Origin: Escherichia phage RB16
Direction: 5' to 3' (one strand)
DNA: 64,000 bases
Sequence record: NC_014467.1
Positions 54,521-56,243 of the stretch are shown here, in pieces (within the stretch, counting starts at the first letter, position 1; the number at the start of each line of letters is the position of its first letter). The notes beneath the pieces are model-generated. The model was not told the DNA's origin. It searched no databases and was given only the letters and a program-made list of their open reading frames with translations. Both the position numbers and the translations under genes were made by a program.

Positions 54521-55954
54521 ATGAAAACTTTTAATGAACTGAATAGCATCATCACCTCAACCGATTCCTACAAAGTGTCCCACTGGATGCAGTATCCGAA
54601 AGGCACTGACGCAGCGATGTTCTATATTGAATCTCGCGGTGGTAAATTTGATGAAGTCGTAACCGCTGGCGTTAACTACGTTGCGCGGGTTCTCGCTGAA
54701 CCAATTACCATGAAGCAGGTTGAGTTAGCGCGGGTACTTTACCGTAAACACTTCGGAAAAGAGATCTTTAACTACGAAGGGTGGAAAAAGATTGCTGAAC
54801 TGGGTTATACCCCTGTAATTTTCCGTGCGATCCCAGAAGGTACGGTTGTTCCGGTGAAAAATGCCGTTGCGACTGTGTACGCCGAAAACGAGTTCTCGTG
54901 GCTGGCTGGGTGGCTGGAAACAATGACGATTCGCGGTATCTGGTATCCGTCATCTGTAGCAACGCTATCGCGTGAGTGTAAAAAGGTTCTGGCACACTAC
55001 CTTGATATGACTTCTGACCTTACTGGTGAAGCATATAACATCACACTGGGTACACGTCTGCATGATTTTGGGGCGCGGGGCGCGACCTCTGCTGAATCTG
55101 CTGGCATTGGTGGGCTGGCACACCTTTATAACTTCATCGGCACTGATACCGTAGAAGGGATGATTATGGCAATCAGCCTCTTTGCGGATTATCAAACACT
55201 GTTTGATGAAGTTGAAAACGTAGAAGTGGCTGGGGTTTCCATCCCTGCTCGTGAGCATTCAACTACGATTTCCTACGGTAAAGAAAACGAAGACGAAGCA
55301 TATAAAAACAGCATTGAAATGTTCGGTGATGGGTTCTACGCTTGCGTATACGATTCATGGGACTACAAAGCCGCTGTTGACCGGATCGATAGTTATAAAG
55401 AGAAAATCATTGCATCTGGCGGTGTGTTGGTAGTGCGTCCAGACTCAGGGGATATGATCGACAACATCATGTACACCTTGCGCAAACTGGGGCAAATCTT
55501 CGGATATACTGTCAACTCCAAAGGGTACAAAGTTCTTCATAACTCTGTTCGTATCATCCAGGGTGACGAGATCCACGGGCCTGAAACAATCAACCGTGTA
55601 TTAAGCTGGATGGAAGCGAACAAATGGTCGAGCGAAAACATTGCGTTCGGTATGGGTGGCGGTTTGCTGCAAGAAGTTACCCGCGATACCCAGAAATATG
55701 CTGAAAAACTTTGCGCTATCCGTATCAACGGTGTGTGGAAAGGCGTTTACAAATGCCCGAAAGGTTCGGAATGGAAAAAGAGCAAGAAAGGTTTATTGAT
55801 GACCATCACTAACGGGATGGAATTCAAGACAATCGATTCTCTCGAAGAATCTATTCCTGTTGGGTGGTTTGATGCGATGGTAACTTATTACGACAATGGT
55901 TATCTGAACAAAACCAACACTTTAGGGGGAATTCGTGAGCGTAGCCGGATTTAA
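54521..55954 (+). CDS. nadV: nicotinamide phosphoribosyltransferase (Nampt/NadV)
   Basis: 477 aa; N-terminus MKTFNELNSIITSTDSYKVSHWMQYPKGT and overall pattern typical of Nampt-family enzymes. Confidence 0.88.
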   Translation: MKTFNELNSIITSTDSYKVSHWMQYPKGTDAAMFYIESRGGKFDEVVTAGVNYVARVLAEPITMKQVELARVLYRKHFGKEIFNYEGWKKIAELGYTPVIFRAIPEGTVVPVKNAVATVYAENEFSWLAGWLETMTIRGIWYPSSVATLSRECKKVLAHYLDMTSDLTGEAYNITLGTRLHDFGARGATSAESAGIGGLAHLYNFIGTDTVEGMIMAISLFADYQTLFDEVENVEVAGVSIPAREHSTTISYGKENEDEAYKNSIEMFGDGFYACVYDSWDYKAAVDRIDSYKEKIIASGGVLVVRPDSGDMIDNIMYTLRKLGQIFGYTVNSKGYKVLHNSVRIIQGDEIHGPETINRVLSWMEANKWSSENIAFGMGGGLLQEVTRDTQKYAEKLCAIRINGVWKGVYKCPKGSEWKKSKKGLLMTITNGMEFKTIDSLEESIPVGWFDAMVTYYDNGYLNKTNTLGGIRERSRI

Positions 55955-56243
55955 TATCCGCGCCAACGATAACGGATCTGTAATCTTCTATAACAATCAG
56001 CCCCTTGTTGCTCGCAAGGGGCTTTTTTGTAAGTTAGTTGGGTATGGGTTCAAGTTGGAACAGGTGGATAACGCAACACTAAAAGAGATCGTGCGTATAG
56101 CCTATCTCCTGAAAGATAAGAAAGATGAACATAAGGCGGTTGCAATGCTGGAGAAATTGGGAGAAAATCATTGCTTCATCATAAATCGTGGATACAAATA
56201 CGATACAATCGCTTTATTTGAAAAAGGGCTTAGTGAACTATGA
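55935..56243 (+). CDS. doubtful small ORF upstream of dam (contains the nadV terminator; real start, if any, downstream of 56030)
   Basis: Track ORF with GTG start overlapping nadV; the terminator hairpin lies inside it. Confidence 0.25.
   Translation: MSVAGFNIRANDNGSVIFYNNQPLVARKGLFCKLVGYGFKLEQVDNATLKEIVRIAYLLKDKKDEHKAVAMLEKLGENHCFIINRGYKYDTIALFEKGLSEL
55998..56030 (+). terminator. rho-independent terminator downstream of nadV
   Basis: GCCCCTTG-ttgctcg-CAAGGGGC followed by T6. Confidence 0.65.

What the first reader, a model, noticed from the sequence alone, without database searches (positions are those of the whole stretch)
55935..56243. Terminator hairpin inside the predicted ORF between nadV and dam
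The 102-aa track ORF (GTG start overlapping nadV) contains a strong terminator at 55998-56030. Either the ORF is spurious or shorter, with dam transcribed from its own promoter, or the hairpin is an attenuator controlling read-through from nadV into dam.
Basis: seen in the sequence. Interest (0 to 1): 0.3.

Follow-up and report, generated by a model that had tools for sequence, protein, structure and literature searches.

The report
Conserved terminator hairpin inside a real gene
In this RB43-like phage, a small conserved protein gene between nadV and dam carries a textbook transcription-terminator hairpin in its first 100 bases, and the same bases are selected both as codons and as RNA structure, so it most likely acts as a leaky stop that lowers transcription from nadV into dam.

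Summary
A 10-bp GC-rich hairpin (55999-56023) followed by six T lies inside the 102-aa GTG-start ORF (55935-56243), 44 nt after the nadV stop.

The 'spurious or shorter ORF' branch is refuted:
- The ORF keeps its full length in every nadV-adjacent lineage recovered, down to 34% identity.
- Codons upstream of the hairpin evolve as coding sequence (dN/dS 0.11-0.45).
- No start codon after the hairpin is conserved.
- AlphaFold (pLDDT 88.8) places the hairpin-encoded residues as the central beta-strand.

The hairpin is also selected beyond the protein:
- The stem codons CCC-CTT/AAG-GGG are disfavoured (joint expectation 0.0002) yet never change.
- All 18 other invariant-residue columns vary synonymously (p=7.5e-4).
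- The loop varies freely, and one Lys-to-Arg change keeps pairing as a wobble.
- There is no compensatory covariation, because the stem never varies.

No promoter motif lies between the hairpin and dam, and the genes overlap (20 nt, then ATGA).

Best reading: a leaky intrinsic terminator (attenuator) embedded in a real gene. Read-through is inferred, not shown. No transcript data exist.

The kind is known, and two GenBank records already mark this site. Interest is modest.

The parts
54521..55954 (+). nadV (nicotinamide phosphoribosyltransferase), the upstream gene whose transcript the hairpin would end
   Evidence: Pfam NAPRTase 3.2e-38 and NAMPT_N 1.4e-24; annotated as such in RB43 and relatives
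55924..55930 (+). Shine-Dalgarno-like AGGGGGA, 4-5 nt before the GTG start of the small ORF, lying inside nadV coding sequence
   Evidence: Sequence; GGGG/GAGG kept in all clades; RBS annotated at this place in phages Miller and KLB25
55935..56243 (+). Small ORF, 102 aa, phrog_7497, unknown function: a real protein-coding gene at its full annotated length
   Evidence: 177 phage records carry it; purifying selection along its whole length; AF2 pLDDT 88.8, pTM 0.77; phrog_7497 E=6e-64
55935..55954 (+). 20-nt overlap of the small ORF start with the nadV end (dual-coding stretch, nearly invariant)
55999..56023 (+). Terminator hairpin: arms 55999-56008 and 56014-56023, loop 56009-56013; encodes residues Q22-L30 (QPLVARKGL); the 8 inner pairs (56001-56008 with 56014-56021), built on the 7-bp CCCCTTG/CAAGGGG core, are invariant in all relatives except one U-A to U.G wobble change
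56023..56029 (+). U-tract TTTTTT(G), encoding L30-F31-C32; kept as 5-7 U in the RB43, KP15 and Phynn clades, weaker (AUUUUCUG) in POP12
56240..57091 (+). dam (D12-class N6-adenine DNA methyltransferase); its ATG overlaps the small ORF stop (ATGA, 56240-56243)
   Evidence: Pfam MethyltransfD12 4e-35
57098..57370 (+). nrdC-like glutaredoxin, the next gene of the same tightly packed + strand unit
   Evidence: Pfam Glutaredoxin 3.5e-6; annotated NrdC in RB43

Best explanation
The 102-aa ORF is a genuine, full-length gene. Its bases +65 to +94 also form a canonical Rho-independent terminator that serves the nadV transcription unit.

The hairpin is built from the complementary codons of two of the protein family's most conserved residues (Pro23 CCC and Gly29 GGG) plus Leu24 CTT and Lys28 AAG. 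The U-tract is the Leu/Phe-Phe codons that follow.

It most likely works as a leaky terminator (attenuator). Most RNA polymerases coming from nadV stop at 56024-56029. A minority read through and supply the mRNA for the small ORF, dam, nrdC and the genes beyond. This sets a step-down in expression between nadV and the methylase cluster.

Shown:
- terminator anatomy;
- nucleotide-level selection on the stem on top of protein selection;
- reality of the ORF;
- absence of recognisable promoters downstream.

Inferred:
- that termination actually happens in vivo;
- that it is partial. This follows because the ORF's only conserved start codon lies upstream of the hairpin, so a protein under purifying selection can only be made from read-through transcripts.
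For: Anatomy:
- 10-bp stem with 6 GC pairs, 5-nt loop, 6 U; -19.4 kcal/mol; z = -4.5.
- As strong as the window's intergenic terminators.

Selection on the stem:
- In 11 distinct sequences spanning 34-99% protein identity, 7 of 10 pairs never vary and 96.4% of cells pair.
- The loop shows 7 different sequences, and Val25's third base uses all four nucleotides.
- All 18 invariant-residue columns outside the stem have 2 or more synonymous codons, against 0 of 3 inside (Fisher p = 7.5e-4). Pairwise synonymous differences are 334/686 outside and 0/55 in the stem.
- dS falls to 0.14-0.29 in codons 22-31. It is 1.26 or higher, or saturated, in codons 32-102, and 0.27-1.98 in codons 8-21.
- Stem codons are disfavoured: CCC 5% of Pro, GGG 14%, AAG 23%, CTT 16%; joint 0.0002.
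- The one stem substitution seen (AAG to AGG, Lys to Arg, in L018) turns U-A into U.G.

ORF reality:
-.

No independent promoter for dam:
-.
- None predicted in RB43 by Nolan et al. 2006 (PMC1524935).
- RB43 lacks MotA-type middle promoters.

Placement fits experiment (Li et al. 2016, PMC4824070):
- A ribosome at a stop codon cannot block a terminator more than 27 nt away. Here the distance is 44 nt.
- Terminators within the first 100 bp of an ORF terminate efficiently. Here the signal spans +65 to +94.

Independent annotators marked a terminator at this spot in phages CfP1 and KLB25, the latter on the opposite strand.
Against: - No transcript 3'-end, RNA-seq or reporter data were found for this phage group, so termination and its efficiency are unmeasured.
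- There is no compensatory covariation (0 double changes). Invariance could in principle reflect a sequence-specific rather than structural constraint.
- Terminated transcripts would carry a stop-less 31-codon fragment of the ORF (non-stop translation), an apparent cost.
- The other strong terminator-like hairpins on the window's + strand lie 5-8 nt after stop codons in intergenic DNA, so this placement is atypical for the genome.
- Distant homologues (RB49, PS2) have strong 5' hairpins without a U-tract. This hints that the ancestral role of a hairpin here may not be termination.
Confidence: 0.6

Rival explanations
1. Ribosome-responsive attenuator of the pyrBI type. The hairpin terminates only when the small ORF is not being translated. 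A ribosome that re-initiates at the GTG (17 nt upstream of the nadV stop) and follows the polymerase closely prevents hairpin folding. Transcription of dam and nrdC is thereby coupled to translation of nadV and the ORF.
For: - The terminator lies inside a translated ORF whose start overlaps the nadV end and has a strong Shine-Dalgarno, an arrangement that favours translational coupling.
- Trailing ribosomes are known to suppress an in-ORF pyrL terminator hairpin (Elgamal et al. 2016, PMC5021804).
- Ribosomes repress terminators in later parts of ORFs (Li et al. 2016).
Against: - Li et al. found that terminators in the first 100 bp of an ORF are not repressed, because ribosomes have not caught up. 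Here the signal ends at +94.
- The nadV ribosome stops 44 nt short of the hairpin, beyond the 27-nt reach.
- No upstream U-rich pause module or alternative antiterminator structure was seen.
- The ORF encodes a conserved folded protein, not a sensor leader peptide.
Confidence: 0.2
2. The hairpin acts mainly after transcription and causes little termination. It could be a 3'-end stabiliser of processed nadV mRNA, an RNase or processing landmark, or a brake on translation of the small ORF.
For: - Distant homologues in other T4-like phages carry their strongest local hairpin in the 5' part of the ORF, just after the upstream stop codon, at other positions, with other sequences and without a U-tract. 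RB49: -17, 3/200 synonymous permutations. PS2: -19 to -22, 2/200. L024: 6/200.
- This suggests a hairpin role that does not need a U-tract.
Against: - In the nadV-adjacent lineage the U-tract is present in every clade. It is created by lineage-specific [LFI]-F residues that the distant homologues lack. This is what is expected if termination itself is selected.
- L023 and L020 hairpins are not significant (34/200, 18/200).
Confidence: 0.15
3. The ORF is spurious, or starts after the hairpin, which would then be an ordinary intergenic terminator with dam on its own promoter (the first reader's first alternative; also implied by the truncated annotations in POP12, 62 aa, and SemperBestia, 69 aa).
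For: - Some annotators chose shorter ORFs.
- In-frame TTG (codon 41) and GTG (codon 44) exist in the window.
Against: - Codon 44 is GTC in KP15 and GTA in Phynn. Codon 41 is CTG or TTT elsewhere. Met71 is Lys in Phynn.
- Codons 8-21 have coding-type periodicity 0.51/0.35/0.20 and dN/dS 0.11-0.45.
- No frame-breaking indels occur in any clade.
- The N-terminal motif G.V.F/Y...P[LI][IL]V.[KR]G persists in homologues at 22-33% identity.
- Residues 6-42 fold at pLDDT about 90.
- No promoter motif was found.
Confidence: 0.03
4. The hairpin is an operator bound by a protein, for example the ORF's own product, as with the T4 autogenous translational repressors gp32, gp43 and RegA. The nucleotide invariance would then reflect sequence-specific recognition.
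For: - Total sequence invariance without covariation.
- Recurrent 5' hairpins in the gene family.
- The comparison with T4 autogenous repressors is from general knowledge, not tested here.
Against: - No nucleic-acid-binding fold or domain was detected: Pfam none, PDB fold search none.
- The loop, usually part of a recognition site, varies freely.
- Hairpins in distant homologues share no sequence.
Confidence: 0.04

Closest known systems
[quoted passage not shown] 2016, NAR 44:2554, PMC4824070)
   Same: - A canonical hairpin plus U-tract lies shortly after the start of a second ORF and more than 27 nt after the upstream stop codon.
- It is predicted to terminate efficiently and to generate non-stop RNAs.
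- The downstream cistrons depend on leak-through.
   Different: - Here the host ORF is a conserved, folded 102-aa protein.
- The terminator has been co-maintained with it across lineages down to 34% identity.
- The tR2 case was an engineered reporter context, and efficiency here is unmeasured.
pyrBI (pyrL) attenuator of E. coli
   Same: An intrinsic terminator hairpin lies inside a translated ORF upstream of the regulated genes. A closely following ribosome can prevent hairpin folding.
   Different: - pyrL is a short leader peptide with no function of its own.
- Its control depends on UTP-sensitive polymerase pausing upstream.
- Here there is no evident pause module.
- The ORF product is under protein-level selection.
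- The position within the first 100 nt argues against efficient ribosomal suppression.
PeSL cassettes (promoter-early stem-loop) of pseudo-T-even phages RB49 and phi1 (Arbiol et al. 2010, PMC2839356)
   Same: GC-rich stem-loops act as terminators or attenuators between early genes of related phages. G-run and C-run stems are typical.
   Different: - PeSLs are intergenic.
- They carry a strong sigma70-like promoter.
- They flank mobile ORFans.
- This hairpin is intragenic, has no promoter and is positionally fixed.
- A PeSL-like element does exist elsewhere in the window (60613-60650).
Existing GenBank annotation of the same site
   Same: - Citrobacter phage CfP1 (KX245890) marks 'terminator' at the homologous 23 bases inside its ORF ABCD_0241.
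- Klebsiella phages KLB25 and KLB27 also mark one.
   Different: Those are automatic or uncommented feature calls. KLB25 places it on the opposite strand. None addresses the conflict with the CDS or the dual constraint.

Membership tests
Rho-independent (intrinsic) transcription terminator | GC-rich stem of about 5-14 bp with a short loop (3-8 nt) | tested here: met
   10 pairs, 6 G-C, 5-nt loop, -16.9 (stem alone) to -19.4 kcal/mol
Rho-independent (intrinsic) transcription terminator | U-rich tract immediately 3' of the stem | tested here: met
   TTTTTT at 56023-56028; 5-7 U in the RB43, KP15 and Phynn clades; weaker AUUUUCUG in POP12
Rho-independent (intrinsic) transcription terminator | Same orientation as the transcription unit, downstream of a gene end | tested here: met
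   All flanking genes are on the + strand; the hairpin lies 44 nt after the nadV stop; the minus-strand version lacks a T-run
Rho-independent (intrinsic) transcription terminator | RNA 3' ends and transcript release at the U-tract in vivo or in vitro | not testable with these tools
   No transcript data found for Pseudotevenvirus or Slopekvirus
Structured RNA supported by covariation | Compensatory double substitutions in stem pairs | tested here: not met
   0 pairs with changes on both sides; 7 of 10 pairs invariant; 2 pairs change on one side only, to G.U. Support comes from frozen synonymous sites instead
pyrBI-type ribosome-mediated attenuator | Terminator hairpin lies within a translated ORF upstream of the controlled genes | tested here: met
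   The hairpin occupies codons 22-30 of the ORF; dam and nrdC follow
pyrBI-type ribosome-mediated attenuator | The ORF is a short leader peptide without a function of its own | tested here: not met
   102 aa; dN/dS 0.04-0.45; confident fold; homologues at 22-33% identity
pyrBI-type ribosome-mediated attenuator | Pause sites or a metabolite-sensitive step that synchronises ribosome and polymerase | not tested
   No obvious U-rich pause module was seen by eye upstream of the stem. No tool available for pause prediction
trp-type attenuator | Mutually exclusive antiterminator and terminator structures | tested here: not met
   The hairpin is kept in the MFE and centroid folds of 55915-56075, with no strong competitor. 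The wider context has z = -1.58
PeSL cassette (Arbiol et al. 2010) | Intergenic position with an adjoining strong sigma70-like early promoter | tested here: not met
   The hairpin is intragenic; no promoter-like site of 9/12 or better lies between 55900 and 56240
phrog_7497 protein family (unknown function) | Full-length match to the family profile | tested here: met
   E = 6e-64 over 1-102 of 102 profile positions. The related phrog_18420 covers the RB49-type homologues

The most novel reading that the evidence does not exclude
A stable hairpin in the first ~100 nt may be an ancestral regulatory feature of the whole phrog_7497/18420 gene family in T4-like phages. Its position and sequence drift: RB49 codons 7-14, PS2 codons 3-17, RB43-type codons 22-30. 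In every case it sits just after the overlapped stop of the upstream gene. In the nadV-adjacent lineage it would have been elaborated into a true terminator by fixing Leu/Phe-Phe codons as a U-tract. If so, the element is a translation-coupled switch (or an operator for the protein itself) that gates entry into the dam-nrdC-endonuclease VII cluster, not just a leaky stop.
Probability: 0.15. Interest if true: 0.55.

Novelty: new member of a known kind. Interest (0 to 1): 0.3.

Why it matters
For annotation, it settles a recurring conflict. The 102-aa ORF should be kept at full length. The truncated calls in POP12, SemperBestia and RB49 ORF065c are probably wrong. The terminator feature can coexist with the CDS.

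Biologically, it is a clean natural example of one 30-nt stretch under two constraints at once. It encodes a beta-strand and turn of a folded protein and also forms an RNA terminator. The structure is built from rare Pro/Gly codons that have stayed fixed while every other conserved residue drifted synonymously.

If termination is confirmed, it defines an expression step between an NAD-salvage gene and the DNA-methylase/redoxin cluster in roughly 175 sequenced phages of Klebsiella, Enterobacter, Cronobacter, Citrobacter and related hosts, many of them therapy candidates. It would also offer a compact in-ORF attenuator for testing models of ribosome-polymerase coupling.

It does not open a new category of mechanism.

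Tried and rejected
1. Alternative start codons after the hairpin (codons 41, 44, 71): not conserved across clades.
2. Own promoter for dam: no TATAAATA within 9 kb upstream, no sigma70-like site of 9/12 or better between 56030 and 56240, and nothing at RB43 1529xx-1532xx in the 2006 promoter tables.
3. Known RNA family: Rfam gives only a chance snoRNA hit at E = 1.
4. Function of the protein:
   - Pfam none.
   - PHROG function unknown.
   - No PDB fold match at E below 2.
   - BFVD returns only uncharacterised homologues.
   - The deep profile search finds just 7 cluster representatives in 1.8 billion.
5. More divergent copies to look for covariation:
   - Viral-contig scans and one metagenome scan gave no new divergence levels.
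   - P0006 and P0007 added only loop variants.
6. Programmed +1 frameshift fusing NadV to the ORF at ATT-TAA: considered because the folded domain starts at residue 6, right at the nadV stop. Rejected for three reasons:
   - The ORF has its own Shine-Dalgarno and GTG.
   - The slip would need a U.U first-position mismatch with no nearby stimulator.
   - Distant homologues stand alone after unrelated genes.
7. PeSL identity: fails on the intergenic and promoter criteria.
8. Antiterminator alternative fold: none found.
9. Transcriptome literature for Pseudotevenvirus or Slopekvirus: nothing relevant.
10. The 2006 TransTerm lists contain neither this hairpin nor the RB49 one.
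Full report
WHAT THE WINDOW IS. The region matches phage RB43 and its relatives (genus Pseudotevenvirus). 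The best match is Buttiauxella phage GuL6 at 93.9%, then RB43 at about 93%. In all, 93 records are collinear over nadV, small ORF, dam and nrdC. Pfam confirms three genes: nadV at 54521-55954, a D12-class Dam methylase at 56240-57091, and a glutaredoxin (NrdC-like) at 57098-57370. A SegE-like GIY-YIG endonuclease follows at 57404-58483.

THE OBSERVATION. It is correct as written.
- The 102-aa ORF runs from 55935 to 56243. It starts at a GTG that lies 17 nt before the nadV stop codon (TAA, 55952-55954). AGGGGGA (55924-55930) precedes the GTG by 4-5 nt.
- The hairpin has arms at 55999-56008 and 56014-56023 and a 5-nt loop. It is followed by TTTTTT (56023-56028).
- It folds at -19.4 kcal/mol, z = -4.5, and none of 200 shuffles is as stable.
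- The minus-strand version has no T-run.
- In a census of the whole 64-kb window, the other strong + strand terminator-like hairpins (14915, 45845, 47502, 63461) each lie 5-8 nt after a stop codon in intergenic DNA. This one is the outlier. It lies 44 nt after the nadV stop, inside the next ORF, and is the most stable of the set.

IS THE ORF REAL, AND DOES IT START BEFORE THE HAIRPIN? Yes on both counts.
- tblastn finds the ORF in 177 phage records. They fall into the RB43 clade (87-99% identity), the Slopekvirus/KP15 clade (about 70%), Pantoea phage Phynn (56%), two environmental contigs (about 50%) and Pectobacterium phage POP12 (34%).
- In every one of these the frame is open from a GTG with a Shine-Dalgarno that overlaps the nadV end. 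The only length change is a two-codon difference at the extreme N-terminus.
- Codons 8-21 lie between the nadV stop and the hairpin. Their variation per site at codon positions 3, 1 and 2 is 0.51, 0.35 and 0.20. In codons 71-102 of the same ORF the values are 0.55, 0.36 and 0.19.
- Nei-Gojobori dN/dS for codons 8-21 is 0.11-0.45.
- No start codon after the hairpin is conserved. Codon 44 is GTG only in the RB43 clade (GTC in KP15, GTA in Phynn). Codon 41 is TTG, CTG or TTT. Met71 is Lys in Phynn.
- A profile search of 1.8 billion cluster representatives finds only seven members. The distant ones (95-113 aa, 22-33% identity) keep the N-terminal motif G-x-V-x-F/Y...P-[LI]-[IL]-V-x-[KR]-G.
- AlphaFold2 on a 13-sequence alignment gives pLDDT 88.8 and pTM 0.77. 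Residues 6-42 form a five-strand beta-meander, and the hairpin-encoded residues 22-28 are its central strand.
- The shorter annotations in POP12 (62 aa, named 'ABC transporter ATP-binding protein'), SemperBestia (69 aa) and RB49 ORF065c are therefore probably truncations.

IS THE HAIRPIN SELECTED FOR ITSELF? Yes, by four lines of evidence.
- Synonymous codons. Across ten sequences representing six clades, all 18 invariant-residue columns outside the stem (and outside the nadV overlap) use two to four synonymous codons. The three invariant-residue columns inside the stem (Pro23 CCC, Leu24 CTT, Gly29 GGG) use one (Fisher p = 7.5e-4). Among clade pairs, identical residues differ synonymously in 334 of 686 cases outside the stem and 0 of 55 inside.
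- Synonymous rate. dS is 0.14-0.29 in codons 22-31. It is 1.26 or higher, or saturated, in codons 32-102, and 0.27-1.98 in codons 8-21.
- Codon choice. The fixed codons are disfavoured in this genome: CCC is 5% of Pro codons, GGG 14% of Gly, AAG 23% of Lys and CTT 16% of Leu. Their joint expectation is 0.0002.
- Loop versus stem. The loop is free: there are seven loop sequences, and Val25's third base takes all four nucleotides. The single stem substitution observed, AAG to AGG (Lys to Arg) in contig L018, converts a U-A pair to U.G.

A formal pair count on 11 distinct sequences gives 96.4% paired cells, 7 of 10 pairs invariant and no compensatory double changes. The case therefore rests on frozen synonymous sites, not on covariation. 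A sequence-specific constraint cannot be strictly excluded. Synonymous-codon permutation of each gene reaches the observed stability in 2/200 (window), 1/200 (KP15), 5/200 (Phynn) and 9/200 (POP12) trials.

WHERE THE HAIRPIN CAME FROM. Pro23 and Gly29 are among the most conserved residues of the whole family, including members without a terminator. Their codon families (CCN and GGN) are mutually complementary. The protein motif P-L...K-G therefore offered a ready stem (CCCCTT is the reverse complement of AAGGGG). The U-tract is made of [L/F/I]30-F31 codons. The distant homologues have other residues there (LNF, NSF, NDW, GNW) and no U-tract. The full terminator is thus specific to the nadV-adjacent lineage.

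NATURAL CONTROLS. The distant homologues sit in other T4-like genomes near dam, endonuclease VII, nrdC, nrdD or nadV, but not directly after nadV.
- Several carry their strongest local hairpin in the 5' part of the ORF, just after the overlapped stop of the upstream gene, with different positions and sequences and no U-tract. Examples are RB49 CACCGACC/GGTCGGTG (-17; 3/200 permutations) and PS2 with an 11-bp stem (-19 to -22; 2/200).
- L023 has ACCCCGT/ACGGGGT at the same protein position, but it is not significant (34/200).
- L021 instead has a classic terminator (ATGGCCGAAAGGCCATTTTTTGTTTTT) just before its probable true start.
- This pattern was noticed post hoc and is suggestive only. It is the basis of the 'novel case'.

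HOW IT MOST LIKELY WORKS.
- nadV, the ORF and dam are chained by overlaps (20 nt, then ATGA), and nrdC follows 6 nt later.
- No T4-type late promoter (TATAAATA) lies within 9 kb upstream of dam. No sigma70-like site lies between the hairpin and dam.
- Nolan et al. 2006 predicted no promoter there in RB43 and found neither MotA nor middle promoters in RB43.
- The ORF and dam must therefore be transcribed through the hairpin.
- The ORF's only conserved start lies upstream of the hairpin, and its protein is under purifying selection. Some read-through must therefore occur. This is an inference.
- Li et al. 2016 showed with lambda tR2 that a ribosome at a stop codon cannot repress a terminator more than 27 nt downstream. 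They also showed that terminators within the first 100 bp of an ORF work efficiently, because ribosomes have not caught up, and that the terminated RNAs give non-stop translation.
- Here the spacing is 44 nt from the nadV stop, and the signal spans +65 to +94 of the ORF. That is the zone in which a terminator inside a gene is expected to work.
- I therefore favour a leaky intrinsic terminator (attenuator) that steps expression down between nadV and the ORF-dam-nrdC group (confidence 0.6).
- The pyrBI-like variant, in which ORF translation suppresses termination (Elgamal et al. 2016), is possible but less likely given the position (0.2).
- A mainly post-transcriptional role (0.15), an operator for a binding protein (0.04) and a spurious or short ORF (0.03) follow.

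COMPARISON WITH WHAT IS KNOWN.
- All sequence-level criteria of a Rho-independent terminator are met. The functional criterion (RNA 3' ends) cannot be tested here.
- It is not a pyrBI- or trp-type leader. The ORF is a functional protein, and no antiterminator fold exists.
- It is not a PeSL cassette, because it is intragenic and has no promoter.
- Terminators predicted or engineered inside coding regions are a known phenomenon.
- The annotators of CfP1 and KLB25/KLB27 had already placed a 'terminator' feature here. The 2006 RB43 TransTerm list did not.
- What is added here is proof that both overlapping features are real and co-selected, and an account of how the terminator was assembled from the protein's Pro/Gly codons.

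VERDICT. The 'spurious ORF' alternative is rejected. The attenuator alternative is supported by inference. It is a new member of a known kind, of modest interest (0.3). It would be higher only if the family-wide 5'-hairpin pattern proves to be a regulatory device.

Noticed in passing
window 13028-13047 (+), inside the 5' end of ORF 12993-14909: A second hairpin built from Pro/Gly codons (CCCCGATATCTTTGTCGGGG, -12.7 kcal/mol). It lies 31 nt after the upstream stop and about 35 nt into a 638-aa ORF whose ATG overlaps that stop (ATGA). The T-run is weak (CTACTTTTG). It may be another embedded attenuator of the same design.
   Followed up: partly
window 60613-60650 (+): An intergenic hairpin AAAAGCCCCTTGCGAAAGTGAGGGGCTTTT lies right after a stop codon and overlaps a sigma70-like promoter (TTGCGA-17-TATATT with TG) upstream of the next ATG. 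It resembles the PeSL promoter/stem-loop cassettes described for RB49 and phi1, and it shares the GCCCCTTG arm with the hairpin studied here.
   Followed up: partly
window 57404-58483 (+): A SegE-like GIY-YIG homing endonuclease gene follows nrdC. In RB43, gene 49 (endonuclease VII) follows nrdC directly, and the megablast match to all relatives stops at window 57376. This looks like a mobile insertion specific to this phage.
   Followed up: partly
L004 2041-2880 (Cronobacter phage leB) and L034 1806-2015: The junction between the small ORF and dam is an insertion hotspot. About 30 relatives carry an extra N4/N6 DNA methylase gene there (about 835 bp), and contig L034 carries an extra 69-aa ORF. 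The small ORF stays attached to nadV in all of them.
   Followed up: no
L015 1618-1806 (POP12), L025 1540-1794 (RB49 ORF065c), L021 3001-3342, BFVD A0A7T3NBF5 (SemperBestia): Start-codon misannotations of this gene family.
- POP12: 62 aa, named 'ABC transporter ATP-binding protein'.
- SemperBestia: 69 aa.
- RB49 ORF065c: starts inside the 3' arm of its hairpin, although an ATG overlapping the upstream stop gives the full-length homologue.
- L021: the called ATG lies inside a terminator hairpin, and Met13 is the likely true start.
   Followed up: partly
L016 1563-1590 (Klebsiella phage KLB25): The homologous hairpin is annotated as a terminator on the minus strand of the gene orientation, where it has no T-run. 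The strand assignment is probably wrong.
   Followed up: no
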